Below, piece after piece: positions 56,520 to 63,179 of a stretch of DNA of 63,310 nucleotides. The position numbers and the translations under genes are program-made. How positions within the stretch are numbered: the first letter of the stretch is position 1; every line of letters begins with the position of its first letter. Below the pieces are notes generated by a model that worked only from the letters and a program-made list of their open reading frames with translations, did no database searches and was not told the DNA's origin. Source of the stretch: an uncultured Anaerolineaceae bacterium (GTDB lineage: Bacteria > Chloroflexota > Anaerolineae > Anaerolineales > E44-bin32); contig CAYLOP010000003.1 of assembly GCA_964385305.1 (NCBI GenBank), positions 1 through 63,310 on the forward strand, given 5' to 3'.

Positions 56520-56547
56520 TTGACAACAGAACGTATGTTCGTATAAA
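56520..56547 (+). promoter_or_regulatory. Near-consensus sigma-70 promoter
   Basis: TTGACA (56520-56525), 16-nt spacer, TATAAA (56542-56547). Confidence 0.65.
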
Positions 56548-56562
56548 ATAGAACAAGCGTTC
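56529..56562 (+). promoter_or_regulatory. Two tandem LexA-type (Cheo box) operators
   Basis: GAACGTATGTTC (56529-56540) and GAACAAGCGTTC (56551-56562) are both perfect GAAC-N4-GTTC palindromes. One lies in the promoter spacer and the other over the predicted start site. Confidence 0.7.
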
Positions 56563-56595
56563 TATATAAGATGATGGCAAGGAGGTGGATGAACA

Positions 56596-57588
56596 ATGGG
56601 ACGATCATTCCTTTATCGAGGATTTCAACAGCGTGTACCTGGCAGGGATACATTGCATACGCGTGTCGCCCCTGCACCGACTCCTTCTAATGGAAGACAG
56701 GATCAAGAGGATCACCGGGGTACCAAATCCTCCGCCCCGCGAATGGAAACGTATCGACTGCCATGGGAGTTAGAAGCCCAGGAGGAAGCACATAATCTTT
56801 GGACCGTGCGCGAGGCGAGAGGGGTAGAACCTCCATACCGCCATCGGTCTCATGCAAATGGCGTGGAGCTTCGCCTGCTGCCGCTGCTCCACGCCATGCC
56901 GGGTCTTACCCCGCTCACCGGGGTGGTTGGGATGTCTGCGGTTGGCAACCCGCTCACGCTAAATCTCGAAAATAAAGCGACATCGAACTTGCTGGTATTC
57001 GGACCGGAAGGTTGTGGAAAATCAGAGTTGCTGCGTGCATTGATGCTCTCGCTTGCGCTTACAAGTCGTCGCTCACAGGTGAATTTTATGGGCATCGACA
57101 TCGGCGGGCGCGAGTTCGCCGTATTAGAAGCTCTGCCGCATGCGCTCACGGATCTGGCGACAGAACCGGGCTTCGCGGTGGATATCGTCCTGTGGTTGCG
57201 AGAGGAGATAGAGCGTCGAAAGAACGTTGGTGTAACACAGCCCCATCTTATACTATTCGTTGACGATATGGGGTGGCTCGTGCGCAGCAAGGATGCTGAA
57301 GCGATCGCCGCGCTCTCCGCTATCGTTCGCTTAGGACAAGATGTTGGGGTTCACCTTGTCGCAGCTTCTCGCACTTCTCTGCCGCCGGCGCTTCGGCGAT
57401 TGCTGCATCATCGAGGGATGGTTGAAGCGGTAGCTGTTCGCGAGCAATCACGTTCTGGCTCGACGGTGGGTAGATTCCGTTTCACCTCGGGTAGGGATAC
57501 CAGCATTGCCGATACAACGTGGATGAGCGCACGCGATTTAGACACTGCGGTACGGCTCGTGAAGGCGGGATGGAGAGCCGCGGGATAG
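56596..57588 (+). CDS. Soluble FtsK/SpoIIIE-like P-loop ATPase (motor domain only)
   Basis: AAGGAGG lies 10 nt upstream. NLLVFGPEGCGKSELL (Walker A), FMGIDIGGREFAVLEALPH, HLILFVDDMGWL (Walker B), GVHLVAASRT. No TM segments and no winged-helix gamma domain. Confidence 0.7.
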   Translation: MGRSFLYRGFQQRVPGRDTLHTRVAPAPTPSNGRQDQEDHRGTKSSAPRMETYRLPWELEAQEEAHNLWTVREARGVEPPYRHRSHANGVELRLLPLLHAMPGLTPLTGVVGMSAVGNPLTLNLENKATSNLLVFGPEGCGKSELLRALMLSLALTSRRSQVNFMGIDIGGREFAVLEALPHALTDLATEPGFAVDIVLWLREEIERRKNVGVTQPHLILFVDDMGWLVRSKDAEAIAALSAIVRLGQDVGVHLVAASRTSLPPALRRLLHHRGMVEAVAVREQSRSGSTVGRFRFTSGRDTSIADTTWMSARDLDTAVRLVKAGWRAAG

Positions 57589-57597
57589 GATTGGTCT

Positions 57598-58005
57598 ATG
57601 AAGAGCCTTGCCATTCGTTGGATAGGTCTGTTTGCTACAGTGGCTTTTGCGCTCCGTCGATTCGGGCATATCTCGAATGTCGCCATCGGTGGTGTCTCTC
57701 GCCCTGTGGCCCGGATGGACGCAATCCTGTGCGGCATGACCATTGCACTGATGAGTTCATGGCTTCTTTCAGCACTATGGCGGATCTTTGCCAAAAGATT
57801 CGAGACAACCCGCATCGAGGAGCAAATCGTGACATACAGCGATATCGTATCCGAGACGTGGGAAACCGTAGAATTCGGGTTCGACGAGAATGTTGTATGC
57901 GATCCAATGTTTCTCTCTGAGGAGGTGGGTCGGGGTATCAACTCTCGCGAAACTGACGATGTCCTAGGCGTTTACCAAGTAGAGGCATACGAGCGTACGA
58001 CATGA
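57598..58005 (+). CDS. Small membrane protein (two predicted TM segments) with an acidic soluble C-terminus
   Basis: 135 aa. WIGLFATVAFAL and AILCGMTIALMSSWLLSALW are the hydrophobic helices. Starts 9 nt after the ATPase stop. Confidence 0.5.
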   Translation: MKSLAIRWIGLFATVAFALRRFGHISNVAIGGVSRPVARMDAILCGMTIALMSSWLLSALWRIFAKRFETTRIEEQIVTYSDIVSETWETVEFGFDENVVCDPMFLSEEVGRGINSRETDDVLGVYQVEAYERTT

Positions 58006-58268
58006 GAAATACATTTCGTTTTGGAGAATTCGTGCATGTGGCGCGGAGAAACAAATCAGGAATACCCGACGAGTTCCTTTGGCGTGGGCGCAGGCATCGC
58101 ATCCGCCGTTTGGAATCATGCCGAGATGAAAACCGTCGAACCAGAGATGCCACGCGGTTGCATCGCTTATTTTTTATTCGGACCACAAGCGGGCTTCGCT
58201 GTTTGATATCACATGATGTCGACGGCGATACCTGGCGTATGGAGCACATGTATCTAACTGAGGAATAA
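58002..58268 (+). CDS. Small Arg-rich protein of unknown function
   Basis: 88 aa with 19 Arg. The ATGA start/stop overlap with the upstream gene suggests translational coupling. Motifs FLWRGRRHRI ... LFFIRTTSG ... DGDTWRMEHMY. Confidence 0.45.
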   Translation: MRNTFRFGEFVHVARRNKSGIPDEFLWRGRRHRIRRLESCRDENRRTRDATRLHRLFFIRTTSGLRCLISHDVDGDTWRMEHMYLTEE

Positions 58269-58271
58269 CCC

Positions 58272-58535
58272 ATGAATGTTGGAATGCTATGGTTTGATGC
58301 AGACCCACGGGTCAATCTAGACGCTCGACTCACACGAGCGGCTGCCTACTACCAAGAAAAGTATGGAAGCGTTCCCAATTTGTGTTTCATCCATCCTGCA
58401 ACAGCAGGGGACGATCCGCCCCAAAAAGTGGCAGATCTTGAAGTTCGCACAAGTAAGAAAATACTCCCAGATCACTTCTGGTTGGGAATAGGTTTAGAGC
58501 CTGTTGTTTCCGCTAGAGAAGCGAGCACGGATTAA
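58272..58535 (+). CDS. Small protein of unknown function, last gene of the operon
   Basis: 87 aa. Starts 3 nt after the upstream stop. MLWFDADPRVNLDARLTRAAAYYQEKYGSVPNLCFIHP. Confidence 0.45.
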   Translation: MNVGMLWFDADPRVNLDARLTRAAAYYQEKYGSVPNLCFIHPATAGDDPPQKVADLEVRTSKKILPDHFWLGIGLEPVVSAREASTD

Positions 58536-59559: not shown

Positions 59560-60081
59560 TTACAAACTCGTGAGAATCCGATGGAGGGTTACATTGCCAT
59601 GGGCCATCTCGTAAACATGTGAGATTTCCAGCGAGCCGGGATCAGCATCTGTTGTGAGAAATCTTTGTGCCATTTCTCCTAGTGGTTGGGCGGCTAATAA
59701 GGCGAGCAATGTGGTACCAATCGCGATTGGGAGGCGGTCCATACGCTCTCTCCATTCTCTACGATCACCAGCATGAATGAAGAAAGATGCACCACCGGCC
59801 AGGAGCGCTGCCGAAACGAGGTTTGTGCCGCAATTTGGATGTATGGCAAGTTGGTGCTCACCGCGTCGCAGTCTCGAGAGAGCCTCAACAACGGCTTCGC
59901 GCACGGCTTCGGTGGAAACATCCCCAAATAAGAAGAAGCCTCTGATGTCGGAACGACCGACAAAGGTTGTATTTGGGAATCGCTTACTGAGTACGTGGAT
60001 CGTTGCATGCTCGAGTGCATGATTCCTACGCAATTGCGATAGCATGGAAAACGGTTTCATCAAGTTCGAAGTTTCAGGCAT
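59560..60081 (-). CDS. Conserved-looking hypothetical protein with His/Cys motifs, immediately upstream of holA
   Basis: GAGGAG lies 4 nt before ATG 60081. Carries RRNHALEHATIHVL and AIHPNCGTNL motifs and two hydrophobic segments. The stop lies 4 nt from the holA start. Confidence 0.5.
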   Translation of the reverse strand: MPETSNLMKPFSMLSQLRRNHALEHATIHVLSKRFPNTTFVGRSDIRGFFLFGDVSTEAVREAVVEALSRLRRGEHQLAIHPNCGTNLVSAALLAGGASFFIHAGDRREWRERMDRLPIAIGTTLLALLAAQPLGEMAQRFLTTDADPGSLEISHVYEMAHGNVTLHRILTSL

Positions 60082-60222
60082 GCTTCTCCTCAAGTGCTGT
60101 ATGTGCTGATTATACCCCGGCACCCGCTTGGTCCCGAGCGCTTTAGATCTCTTCAATCCTTTCGGCTCGAAATACCGACTTGCCGAAGCACCCCTAGAGC
60201 CAAGCAAGGTTTGGAGTGAGGG

Positions 60223-62600: not shown

Positions 62601-62861
62601 TTAGCGAGGTTCGATGACGAGGCGGATAGCTGTGCGCTCCTTGCCCTCAATTTCTACTGAGGTGAACTCAGGAATGCAGATGACATCTATGCCATCTTCC
62701 TGAAGGTAGCCACGGGCGATCGCAACGGCTTTTACCGCTTGGTTGACGGCCCCAGCACCGATGGCTTGAGCCTCTGCACGCTGATGCTCCCTTACGACGC
62801 CTGCAATAGCACCTGCAACTGCAGAGGTGCGTGACGCGGACGAAACTTTTATGACGTTCAT
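62601..62861 (-). CDS. spoVS: Stage V sporulation protein S family protein
   Basis: 86 aa from ATG 62861. MNVIKVSSASRTSAVAGAIAGVVREHQRAEAQAIGAGAVNQAVKAVAIARGYL is the highly conserved SpoVS sequence. Confidence 0.9.
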   Translation of the reverse strand: MNVIKVSSASRTSAVAGAIAGVVREHQRAEAQAIGAGAVNQAVKAVAIARGYLQEDGIDVICIPEFTSVEIEGKERTAIRLVIEPR

Positions 62862-63179
62862 CGGGCCCCCTATCTTGGTGTTCGTATGTGTCGCCCGATA
62901 TGCGATGCGGTTATAAAATGATTGTACAGGATTCCCATGCAAGGAGCAAGATAAACAGGGTGTCTTTCGAATGTTGAATTTGTGCATCCTAGGGGGATGT
63001 TGCTAAAGAAAAGGATGAAGTGGCCGTTCGATTGGGCTCGGAATGTCGTAGATGACCATCATGCATTTCGAATGAGCATTCGACCCCCGATTATCTTGAA
63101 GCATTGATTTTACGGTGCCTGTGCAAGGTGGAATGCACTTCGGATTCAGGGAGACCTGTAGCTTGTAGCTATTAAAGGG

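What the first reader, a model, noticed from the sequence alone, without database searches (positions are those of the whole stretch)
56520..58535. Double LexA-box promoter driving an uncharacterised four-gene operon headed by a motor-only FtsK/SpoIIIE-like ATPase
Seen in sequence:
- The promoter is TTGACA (56520-56525), a 16-nt spacer, then TATAAA (56542-56547).
- Two perfect GAAC-N4-GTTC palindromes sit on it. GAACGTATGTTC (56529-56540) lies inside the spacer. GAACAAGCGTTC (56551-56562) lies over the predicted start site.
- AAGGAGG lies 10 nt before ATG 56596.
- Four ORFs follow with a 9-nt gap, a 4-nt ATGA overlap and a 3-nt gap, which is operon-like coupling.

Established knowledge: GAAC-N4-GTTC is the core of the Cheo/SOS box bound by LexA in Firmicutes. 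As far as I recall, it is also bound by the LexA of Chloroflexi such as Dehalococcoides.

The four products:
- Gene 1 has an FtsK/SpoIIIE-type Walker A (GPEGCGKS), Walker B (LILFVDDM) and the surrounding FtsK alpha/beta layout. It is only 330 aa, with no TM anchor and no gamma domain.
- Gene 2 is a 2-TM protein.
- Gene 3 is an 88-aa protein with 19 Arg.
- Gene 4 is an 87-aa orphan.

None of these is a canonical SOS function (recA, lexA, uvr, dinB, imuAB-dnaE2, a known division inhibitor). The flanks are housekeeping genes (MEMO-like, holA) with no integrase, so a prophage or ICE explanation is not obvious.

Inference: this is a damage-inducible DNA-translocation or division-checkpoint module. 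A loose analogy is the UV-induced Ced DNA-import system of Sulfolobales, which pairs a HerA/FtsK-class ATPase with small membrane proteins. That analogy is speculation.
Basis: partly seen in the sequence, partly recalled or inferred. Interest (0 to 1): 0.75.

Follow-up and report, generated by a model that had tools for sequence, protein, structure and literature searches.

The report
Damage-inducible FtsK-like operon in Anaerolineae
A promoter carrying two binding sites for the DNA-damage repressor LexA drives a conserved operon in Anaerolineae bacteria, and its most persistent product is a small uncharacterised protein whose relatives sit in cell-division gene clusters and next to DNA-pump genes of mobile elements, so it is a candidate missing link between DNA damage and cell division or chromosome segregation in this phylum.

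Summary
All stated coordinates, motifs and ORFs check out. The promoter/operator block (TTGACA, box 1, -10, box 2) is conserved in about 30 distinct orthologous promoters from Anaerolineae/Chloroflexota, while the rest of the intergenic region is not. A uvrA promoter in a related genome has the same two-box layout. LexA (SOS) control is therefore well supported in silico.

The interpretation needs revising in four ways.
- The conserved core is gene 1 plus gene 4, not four genes. Genes 2 and 3 are optional.
- Gene 4 is not an orphan. It founds a family of at least 2,347 clusters. Members also lie inside dcw clusters (mraY-X-murD), alone behind a box-bearing promoter, and in mobile elements next to FtsK/ParB/ParA genes.
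- Gene 1 is FtsK-derived, but its alpha domain is degenerate here and its catalytic Glu is Asp. The partner is beta-only or lacks Walker A in some lineages, so a conserved motor role is doubtful.
- The Ced analogy fails the membership test.

Best reading: an SOS-induced module acting where chromosome segregation meets septation. The mechanism is inferred, not shown. It is a new variant of a known kind.

The parts
56520..56525 (+). -35 hexamer TTGACA
   Evidence: TTGAC(A) is invariant in all orthologous promoters.
56528..56541 (+). LexA-type operator 1 (AGAACGTATGTTCG; core GAAC-N4-GTTC 56529-56540), in the promoter spacer 3 nt after the -35
   Evidence: It is at the same position, with at most 1 mismatch, in 32 of 32 orthologous promoters.
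56544..56549 (+). -10 hexamer TAAAAT (18-nt spacer)
   Evidence: It aligns with TAGAAT/TATAAT/TAAAAT in the orthologs, most of which have a TGn extended -10.
56550..56563 (+). LexA-type operator 2 (AGAACAAGCGTTCT; core 56551-56562), directly after the -10 and over the predicted start site
   Evidence: A second box (GAAC or GCAC variant) lies 21-30 nt after box 1 in all orthologs.
56579..56585 (+). Shine-Dalgarno AAGGAGG, 10 nt before the ATG
   Evidence: A GGAGG is conserved in the orthologs.
56596..57588 (+). Gene 1: soluble FtsK/SpoIIIE-derived P-loop protein (330 aa). It has a degenerate alpha domain, a beta (RecA-like) domain and a family-specific C-terminal tail. It has no TM segment and no gamma domain.
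   Evidence: PF01580 E=1.9e-23. The profile hits FtsK and EccC structures. The family has 106 clusters. GKS is conserved in 92/93 and the Walker B Asp in 91/93. The catalytic position is Asp in 68/93, and the Arg-finger position is Arg in 44/93.
57598..58005 (+). Gene 2: small membrane protein (135 aa) with 1-2 TM segments, a juxtamembrane TRxE motif and an acidic C-terminus. It is present in only some orthologous operons.
   Evidence: No family hit. Homologs with TM segments and TRxE occur in L001-L007. It is absent in L009, L010, L012, L013, L018 and L020.
58002..58268 (+). Gene 3: DUF6504 protein (88 aa, 19 Arg), predicted all-beta. It is optional.
   Evidence: PF20114 scores 29.2 bits against a cut-off of 24.2. 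Invariant WRGRR motif. AF2 pLDDT is 87, with no PDB fold match. All 30 metagenome relatives lie in this same operon.
58272..58535 (+). Gene 4: conserved small alpha/beta protein (87 aa) and the most persistent element of the unit. It founds an uncharacterised family.
   Evidence: 2,347 representative clusters at E<=1e-3. Invariant residues are G4, M5, W7, D9, Y27, K30, Y31, G32, P35, C38 and G72. AF2 pLDDT is 83, with no fold match in PDB or BFVD. Other contexts are dcw clusters, a standalone copy with a box, and mobile elements next to FtsK/ParB genes.

Best explanation
This is a LexA-repressed (SOS) transcription unit of Anaerolineae.

Regulation. Two LexA dimers would sit on a near-consensus sigma-70 promoter. 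One operator lies in the -35/-10 spacer and one lies immediately after the -10, so RNA polymerase is excluded. After DNA damage, RecA-stimulated LexA self-cleavage would free the promoter and all four genes would be co-transcribed. This step is inferred from sequence and conservation.

Function. The effector is most likely the small protein gene 4. It probably works with gene 1, a soluble derivative of the FtsK motor domain that still binds nucleotide but may hydrolyse it poorly. I propose they act on the FtsK/divisome machinery, where chromosome segregation meets septum closure. They would delay or coordinate septation, or help clear DNA from the septum, while the chromosome is repaired. In the window's lineage, gene 2 (a small membrane protein) would tether the complex to the membrane. 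Gene 3 (an Arg-rich DUF6504 beta-protein) would supply nucleic-acid binding. Both genes are accessory.

What is shown: the operator architecture and its conservation, the family memberships, the gene-context associations, and the degeneracy of the ATPase.

What is inferred: LexA binding, damage induction, g1-g4 interaction, the target, and the direction of the effect (inhibition or facilitation).
For: Regulation:
- Two perfect Cheo-type boxes sit on the promoter.
- The identical architecture (cTTGACA-N3-box-N2-3-TAnAAT-box) occurs in 32 promoters, about 29 of them distinct. There is at most 1 mismatch per box, while the flanking intergenic DNA is not conserved.
- The layout survives relocation of the gene pair to another locus (L052/L056). 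It also survives loss of the partner (L055).
- A canonical SOS gene, uvrA, has a box in the spacer and a second 1-mismatch box after its -10 in an Anaerolineaceae genome.
- GAAC-N4-GTTC / CGAACRNRYGTTYC is the LexA motif of Gram-positive bacteria (PMC2248561). From my own knowledge, Dehalococcoides LexA binds it too (Fernandez de Henestrosa et al. 2002).

Function:
- Gene 1 is in the FtsK/SpoIIIE family.
- E. coli ftsK is itself SOS-inducible through the dinH promoter (PMC4080785).
- Gene-4 family members are encoded between mraY and murD in four distinct dcw clusters of Anaerolineales-type contigs.
- In 24 IMG/VR loci, the commonest Pfam family among the neighbours of gene-4 homologs is FtsK_SpoIIIE (7 of 92 ORFs), followed by ParB and ParA. 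An FtsK-like gene lies directly upstream of gene 4 in L064 and L077.
- The locus is chromosomal, lies in a conserved housekeeping neighbourhood and is vertically inherited: priA-CNNM-Memo | operon | holA-DUF6391-holB.
Against: - There is no experimental evidence of LexA binding or damage induction, and no lexA or recA promoter of this clade could be examined.
- The link to division and segregation rests on gene neighbourhood only.
- Genes 4 and 3 match no known fold, so no biochemical activity can be assigned.
- Gene-4 copies in dcw clusters carry no LexA box and look constitutive. That fits a positive or structural division factor better than an inhibitor.
- Gene 1 can occur without gene 4 (L011), and gene 4 without gene 1 (L055).
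- I could not determine whether one genome carries both a dcw copy and an SOS copy.
Confidence: 0.5

Rival explanations
1. Gene 1 is a true damage-inducible DNA translocase. It would pump or remodel DNA for repair (fork or recombination-intermediate processing, or clearing trapped DNA). In the reader's version, it would move DNA between cells of the filament for recombinational repair, like the Ced system. Genes 2-4 would be its membrane and DNA adaptors.
For: - FtsK family membership, with an alpha domain in most family members.
- Walker A GKS and the Walker B Asp are nearly invariant.
- A membrane protein and an Arg-rich protein are encoded in the operon.
- Gene-4 homologs lie next to FtsK-like genes in integrative or plasmid-like elements, which may transfer DNA.
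Against: - The catalytic Glu is Asp in 68/93 members and is G, N or A in others. The Arg-finger-equivalent is Arg in only 44/93.
- The alpha domain is degenerate in the window's protein and absent in L052.
- Walker A is lost in L061 although the double-box promoter and gene 4 are intact.
- Gene 4 occurs alone in L055.
- Genes 2 and 3 are dispensable.
- The CedB model scores 12.8 bits against a cut-off of 700.
- There is no gamma or other recognised DNA-binding domain.
Confidence: 0.15
2. The gene 1-gene 4 pair is a domesticated or remnant module of a mobile element (an integrative element or phage-plasmid with FtsK-like, ParAB and integrase genes). Its LexA control would reflect element induction logic rather than a host repair or division function.
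For: - 26 IMG/VR contigs carry gene-4 homologs, with FtsK-like, ParB, ParA, integrase, methylase and portal genes nearby.
- A two-domain gene-4 protein lies in a phage- or plasmid-like context (L053).
- The partner ATPase shows reductive evolution.
Against: - In about 45 loci from diverse Anaerolineae the operon sits at one fixed chromosomal position between Memo and holA. No integrase, repeats or composition shift are seen.
- The mobile-element copies lack LexA boxes.
- Gene 4 keeps strong sequence conservation, with 11 invariant residues. That argues for a maintained host function.
Confidence: 0.15
3. The palindromes are operators for a repressor other than LexA, or they are not damage-responsive, so the operon is not part of the SOS regulon.
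For: No binding or expression data exist. The promoters of lexA and recA in this clade were not examined. The second box is often GCAC-N4-GTTC.
Against: - The motif is identical to the Gram-positive LexA consensus core.
- The same layout is found on uvrA.
- Perfect boxes in 475 kb of fetched loci lie almost only at these promoters and at uvrA.
Confidence: 0.08
4. The operon encodes an accessory of damage tolerance: a mutasome-like or RecA-modulating factor. Gene 1 would play an ImuA/SulA-like RecA-fold adaptor role, and genes 3 and 4 would be small modulators like DinI or RecX.
For: - The strong double operator is typical of tightly controlled, late or toxic SOS functions.
- Gene 1 is a RecA-fold protein with doubtful catalysis.
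- The neighbouring genes are replication genes: priA, holA and holB.
Against: - No polymerase (imuB, dnaE2, dinB) lies in or next to any of the loci.
- Genes 2-4 give no Pfam hit to DinI, RecX, SulA, ImuA or YolD.
- The dcw and FtsK/ParB contexts of gene 4 point elsewhere.
Confidence: 0.05
5. Gene 1 is an EccC/EssC-like secretion ATPase, and the small proteins are its substrates or adaptors (a type VII-like system).
For: The best NCBIfam and PDB hits include EccC/EssC ATPase domains.
Against: - All T7SS models score far below their cut-offs, for example 59.6 bits against 346.
- Per domain, the best match is FtsK, and it includes the alpha domain.
- There are no EccB/D/E genes and no WXG100-type helical hairpin. 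Gene 4 is alpha/beta and gene 3 is all-beta.
- Gene 1 has no TM segment.
Confidence: 0.03

Closest known systems
E. coli ftsK under the SOS promoter dinH
   Same: An FtsK-family protein is placed under LexA control, linking DNA damage to chromosome segregation and septation (PMC4080785).
   Different: E. coli FtsK is the full-length essential divisome protein, with a TM domain, linker, alpha/beta motor and gamma domain, and a canonical DE Walker B. Here the protein is a short soluble paralog. It has a degenerate alpha domain, no gamma domain and a DD Walker B. It is paired with a small partner protein and controlled by a double operator.
SOS-induced cell-division inhibitors (SulA, YneA, SosA, ChiZ, DivS, SidA/DidA)
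   Same: They are small, lineage-specific, LexA-controlled proteins acting on the divisome. Gene 4's family is tied to dcw clusters by gene context.
   Different: There is no sequence or fold similarity to any of them. Gene 4 has no predicted TM segment and is usually paired with an FtsK-derived protein. Constitutive dcw-cluster copies exist, so inhibition is not established.
[quoted passage not shown]
   Same: An operon pairs a small membrane protein with an FtsK-family protein in a filamentous bacterium. The reference was seen in PMC9380542; the details are from my own knowledge.
   Different: SmeA-SffA is developmentally regulated, not SOS-regulated. Gene 2 is not conserved across the family. 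No homology to SmeA was tested or found.
Ced DNA-import system of Sulfolobales (CedA/A1/A2/CedB)
   Same: It is damage-inducible and pairs a HerA/FtsK-superfamily ATPase with small membrane proteins.
   Different: The CedB model scores 12.8 bits against a cut-off of 700, a match at P-loop level only. There is no CedA-like polytopic protein. The membrane protein here is optional, and the ATPase is dispensable or degenerate in some lineages.
Firmicutes-type LexA operators (Cheo box) with multiple boxes per promoter
   Same: The core is GAAC-N4-GTTC, with 1-3 boxes per promoter overlapping the -35/-10 (PMC2248561).
   Different: The flanking bases here are A/T (AGAAC...GTTCT) rather than C/G. The second box often degenerates to GCAC-N4-GTTC.

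Membership tests
LexA (SOS) regulon, Gram-positive/Chloroflexi-type operator | Palindrome GAAC-N4-GTTC overlapping the core promoter | tested here: met
   There are two perfect boxes, one in the spacer and one directly after the -10.
LexA (SOS) regulon, Gram-positive/Chloroflexi-type operator | Operator conserved in orthologous promoters (phylogenetic footprint) | tested here: met
   All 32 promoters keep both boxes with at most 1 mismatch each and the same geometry. This also holds at the relocated loci L052 and L061.
LexA (SOS) regulon, Gram-positive/Chloroflexi-type operator | Same motif on canonical SOS genes of the same clade | tested here: inconclusive
   It was found on one uvrA promoter (L052). 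The lexA, recA and ruv promoters could not be fetched.
LexA (SOS) regulon, Gram-positive/Chloroflexi-type operator | LexA binding in vitro and damage-dependent induction | not testable with these tools
   This needs EMSA or footprinting, and RNA-seq or RT-qPCR after mitomycin C or UV.
FtsK/SpoIIIE family (PF01580) | Pfam model above the gathering score | tested here: met
   83.5 bits against a cut-off of 24, E=1.9e-23.
FtsK/SpoIIIE DNA translocase (functional motor) | Walker A GK[ST] and Walker B hhhhDE with a catalytic Glu | tested here: not met
   Walker A is met (GKS in 92/93). Walker B is DD in the window protein. The catalytic position is D in 68, E in 8, G in 7, N in 5 and A in 2 of 93 members.
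FtsK/SpoIIIE DNA translocase (functional motor) | Arg finger (the R of ATQRP) | tested here: inconclusive
   The aligned position is R259 in the window protein, but it is Arg in only 44/93 members.
FtsK/SpoIIIE DNA translocase (functional motor) | FtsK alpha domain (PF17854) | tested here: not met
   It is not detected in the window protein or its closest relatives P0002-P0004, but is present in most other members.
FtsK/SpoIIIE DNA translocase (functional motor) | N-terminal membrane domain and C-terminal gamma (KOPS/XerD) domain | tested here: not met
   The protein is 330 aa with no hydrophobic segment and no gamma domain. The profile ends with a family-specific tail.
Ced DNA-import system | CedB equivalog (NF041017) | tested here: not met
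   12.8 bits against a cut-off of 700. The match covers only residues 119-163, the P-loop.
Type VII secretion EccC/EssC | Equivalog models TIGR03924/03925/03928 above their cut-offs | tested here: not met
   Scores are 59.6, 44.3 and 40.7 bits against cut-offs of 346 to 778. No other T7SS genes are nearby.
DUF6504 (PF20114) | Pfam model above the gathering score (gene 3) | tested here: met
   29.2 bits against a cut-off of 24.2, E=1.1e-6.
Known SOS division inhibitors and RecA modulators (SulA, YneA/LysM, DinI, RecX) | Match of genes 2-4 to the corresponding Pfam models, or a fold match | tested here: not met
   Genes 2 and 4 hit no Pfam family at E<=1. The gene 3 and 4 models have no PDB match at E<=1e-3.
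imuA-imuB-dnaE2 mutagenesis cassette | Y-family-like ImuB and DnaE2 genes in the unit | tested here: not met
   No polymerase gene lies in or beside the operon in the window or in any related locus.
Anti-phage defence systems (PADLOC) | Full-length match to a defence protein model | tested here: not met
   There are only P-loop-level partial hits (mad8 at residues 127-173, and the FtsK-like region of SspH) and none for genes 2-4.

The most novel reading that the evidence does not exclude
Gene 4 founds a new family of small regulators of FtsK-type motors or the divisome in Chloroflexota. Hosts would use it as the phylum's missing SOS checkpoint between division and segregation, and as a dcw-cluster component (mraY-X-murD). 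Phages and integrative elements would use it beside their own FtsK/ParB genes. Gene 1 would be an FtsK-motor-derived decoy or adaptor rather than a pump. A more radical variant is damage-induced DNA translocation between cells of the filament, which I put at about 0.05.
Probability: 0.3. Interest if true: 0.75.

Novelty: new variant of a known kind. Interest (0 to 1): 0.6.

Why it matters
- The SOS regulon of Anaerolineae/Chloroflexota is essentially undescribed, and no SOS division or segregation effector is known for this phylum of filamentous bacteria.
- This locus gives a clean, strongly conserved LexA target whose products are all uncharacterised.
- It links a large unannotated protein family (at least 2,300 clusters) to three settings that all touch DNA segregation and septation: an SOS operon with an FtsK-derived partner, the dcw cluster, and the FtsK/ParAB modules of mobile elements.
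- If confirmed, it would add a new class of small FtsK/divisome-associated regulator. It would also show an FtsK motor domain being recycled into a non-motor accessory protein.

Tried and rejected
- Fold searches of the gene 4 model (PDB and BFVD) and the gene 3 model (PDB) gave nothing at E<=1e-3. The HK97-capsid, lipocalin and WRKY hits are noise.
- Profile searches of genes 3 and 4 against PDB sequences gave only spurious antibody 'YYQQKPG' matches.
- NCBIfam, PHROGs and PADLOC gave nothing for genes 2-4 beyond one weak PHROG of unknown function for gene 2.
- A tblastn of gene 3 against plasmids found no match. I therefore could not test my recollection that DUF6504 might accompany imuB/dnaE2 elsewhere, and I dropped it.
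- Literature searches on DUF6504, LexA with Chloroflexi or Anaerolineae, FtsK-like SOS genes, and dcw with Chloroflexi found no description of this operon.
- The distant gene-1 paralog P0105 lies in an unrelated metabolic context without boxes, so it is uninformative.
- Fusion proteins of the gene-4 family carry two gene-4 domains or disordered tails. One weak GIY-YIG-like fusion (E=0.006) was not pursued.
- The other near-matches to the extended box in the window all lie inside long ORFs and were dismissed.
- A first shuffle simulation timed out and was replaced by an analytic estimate.


Full report
**1. The observation**

- TTGACA is at 56520-56525.
- The two perfect GAAC-N4-GTTC palindromes are at 56529-56540 and 56551-56562.
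- AAGGAGG is at 56579-56585, 10 nt before ATG 56596.
- Four co-directional ORFs follow, separated by a 9-nt gap, an ATGA overlap and a 3-nt gap.
- GPEGCGKS, LILFVDDM and the 19 Arg of gene 3 are correct.

The two boxes are the only perfect ones in the 63-kb window. Their number alone is not significant, since 1.19 are expected. A pair within 40 nt is expected only about 9e-4 times per window. Five other one-mismatch matches to the extended motif all lie inside long ORFs. The flanks are a Memo-like gene and holA. Base composition shows no island.

**2. The operator is a phylogenetic footprint**

A scan of one genome per species returned 13 Anaerolineae/Chloroflexota loci with the same synteny: Memo(-) | gene 1 ... 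gene 4 | holA(-). Metagenome contigs and contig look-ups added about 30 more.

In all 32 promoters available, about 29 of them distinct, the block has this form: cTTGACA, N3, GAAC-N4-GTTC, N2-3, TAnAAT, then GAAC/GCAC-N4-GTTC.
- Each box has at most one mismatch.
- The boxes lie 21-30 nt apart.
- The rest of the intergenic DNA is unrelated between loci.

This alignment puts the -10 of the window at TAAAAT 56544-56549 (18-nt spacer). Most orthologs add a TGn extended -10.

The same architecture persists in three altered settings:
- The gene pair has moved to a different neighbourhood (L052/L056).
- The partner protein has lost its P-loop (L061).
- Gene 4 stands alone (L055, single box).

In L052 the canonical SOS gene uvrA has a box in its spacer and a second one-mismatch box just after its -10.

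GAAC-N4-GTTC is the Cheo box, the core of the Gram-positive LexA consensus CGAACRNRYGTTYC (PMC2248561). That Dehalococcoides LexA binds it is from my own knowledge (Fernandez de Henestrosa et al., J Bacteriol 2002). I could not retrieve that paper here. I therefore rate LexA control at about 0.85-0.9. Binding and induction remain untested.

**3. Gene 1**

Gene 1 belongs to FtsK/SpoIIIE (PF01580, 83.5 bits). A family profile hits FtsK motors, including the alpha domain, and EccC ATPase domains. All T7SS, FtsK and CedB equivalog models score far below their cut-offs. PADLOC gives only P-loop-level hits.

The family has 106 clusters of roughly 330-345 aa, named Anaerolineales where a name exists. 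It is the FtsK alpha+beta unit without the membrane domain, linker or gamma domain, and it ends in a conserved family-specific tail.

Three things weaken the 'motor' reading.
- The alpha domain is detected in most members, but not in the window's protein or its closest relatives. Their first 90 or so residues are a degenerate, low-complexity remnant.
- GKS (92/93) and the Walker B Asp (91/93) are kept. The catalytic Glu position, however, is Asp in 68, Glu in 8, and Gly, Asn or Ala in 14 of 93. The position aligned to the FtsK Arg finger is Arg in only 44/93.
- The partner of gene 4 is reduced in other lineages. It is a 234-aa beta-only P-loop protein in L052. In L061 it is a 270-aa protein whose Walker A is gone (SGIDSLFE). 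In L055 it is absent.

Nucleotide binding therefore looks conserved in the main family, but translocation is unlikely to be the conserved function.

**4. Genes 2 and 3**

Gene 2 is a small membrane protein with 1-2 TM segments, a TRxE motif after the last TM and an acidic tail. It is recognisable in L001-L007 but absent from many operons.

Gene 3 is a DUF6504 protein with an invariant WRGRR motif. Its AF2 model is confident and all-beta, and it has no PDB match. All 30 relatives found in metagenomes lie between gene 1 and gene 4, and it too is missing from many operons.

The minimal operon is gene 1 + gene 4 (L010, L018, L020).

**5. Gene 4 is the key and is not an orphan**

The word-indexed search found 18 relatives. 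An exhaustive profile search found 2,347 representative clusters at E<=1e-3, and 1,045 at E<=1e-10. Where names exist, they read 'hypothetical protein' from Anaerolineaceae or Longilinea.

Eleven residues are invariant. The AF2 model (pLDDT 83; beta-alpha-beta-beta-beta) has no match in PDB or BFVD.

The family occurs in four contexts:
- The SOS operon described here.
- Inside the dcw cluster (rsmH, ftsL-like, PBP, murE, mraY, [gene-4 domain + basic disordered tail], murD, ftsW, murG). This holds in four distinct high-GC contigs whose MraY clusters with Anaerolineales MAGs. These copies have no LexA box.
- Alone, behind a TTGACA-box-TATAAT promoter.
- In 26 IMG/VR contigs without boxes, gene 1, Memo or holA. 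Among 92 neighbouring ORFs of at least 200 aa there, the most frequent Pfam family is FtsK_SpoIIIE (7). Next come ParB (5 and 4), DUF5131 (4), then ParA-type ATPases, integrases and methylases (3 each). An FtsK-like gene lies directly upstream of gene 4 in L064 and L077.

A two-domain gene-4 protein also lies in a plasmid- or phage-like context.

**6. Mechanism**

Regulatory mechanism (inferred from sequence and conservation): two LexA dimers occlude a near-consensus promoter, and RecA-stimulated LexA cleavage derepresses it. The double operator suggests tight repression.

Function (inferred from context): gene 4 recurs in three settings, namely FtsK-type ATPases (chromosomal and mobile), partition genes and the dcw cluster. 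All three concern moving DNA out of the way of a closing septum. E. coli ftsK is itself SOS-induced via dinH (PMC4080785).

I therefore favour an SOS module acting at the segregation/septation interface. Gene 4 would be the effector and gene 1 an FtsK-motor-derived partner, adaptor or decoy. Genes 2 and 3 would be lineage-specific membrane and nucleic-acid-binding accessories.

Whether it delays septation or helps division restart is open. The constitutive dcw copies argue against a pure inhibitor.

Rivals are listed with their evidence in the Rival explanations section: a genuine repair or transfer translocase, a domesticated mobile-element module, a non-LexA operator, a mutasome or RecA modulator, and a T7SS-like ATPase.

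**7. Comparison and novelty**

It works like known SOS links to division (dinH-ftsK; SulA/YneA-type inhibitors) and resembles SmeA-SffA in gene pairing. It is a member of none of these families. It fails the Ced, T7SS, ImuAB and defence-system membership tests. Gene 1 is an FtsK-family member but fails several features of a functional FtsK translocase.

No paper in the searchable library describes DUF6504, an Anaerolineae LexA regulon or this operon.

I class it as a new variant of a known kind, with an uncharacterised large protein family (gene 4) at its centre. Interest is 0.6. The regulatory finding is solid and the context links are new and testable, but the function is still inferred.

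Noticed in passing
L052:449-510 (Anaerolineaceae MAG GCA_040767665.1): The uvrA promoter carries GAACGGAAGTTC between a -35-like TTGTAT and TATAAT. A second one-mismatch box (GAATGAGTGTTC) follows right after the -10. This is the same double-operator geometry as the operon studied.
   Followed up: partly
L057:5001-5381, L058:5001-5387, L059:5001-5369, L060:5001-5345: A gene-4-domain protein with a basic disordered C-terminal tail is encoded between mraY and murD in dcw clusters of high-GC Anaerolineales-type contigs. I found no description of this extra dcw gene in the literature I searched.
   Followed up: partly
L061:4168-4980: The partner protein upstream of gene 4 has lost the Walker A motif (SGIDSLFE in place of GxxGxGKS) but keeps LLIIDDL. 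The perfect double-box promoter is retained. It looks like a pseudo-ATPase.
   Followed up: partly
L009:5748-7400 (Chloroflexia MAG MFD09964.bin.2.53): Gene 1 is split into two ORFs, gene 4 is frameshifted, and Memo and holA give split hits. This suggests indel errors in the assembly or pseudogenisation.
   Followed up: no
L011:6056-6238 and L013:2499-2681: A conserved 60-aa Lys-rich gene (MKAELEFFDVK.RSKFK..DWR.E...) lies between the operon and holA in some loci. In L011 it occupies the place of gene 4.
   Followed up: no
window 59560-60207 and 62601-62987: A DUF6391 gene always follows holA. holB, a SpoVS-like gene and a deoxynucleoside kinase complete a conserved neighbourhood rich in replication genes (priA, holA and holB within 10 kb).
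   Followed up: partly
window 58154-58166: A terminator-like hairpin followed by a T-run (GCGGTTGCATCGC TTATTTTTTA) lies inside the gene 3 coding sequence. The number of such sites in the region equals the chance expectation.
   Followed up: no
L022 (Ga0315545_1120035, 1141 nt): This metagenome contig is 100% identical to window genes 1-4 at the protein level, so the same organism was sampled in a JGI metagenome.
   Followed up: no
P0206 (176 aa): A gene-4 domain is fused to a region with a weak GIY-YIG nuclease match (E=0.006). It may be a real fusion or a gene-call artefact.
   Followed up: no
L005:6579 and L006:6588: An additional perfect GAAC-N4-GTTC box lies inside the gene 1 coding sequence, at the same position in two related loci.
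   Followed up: no
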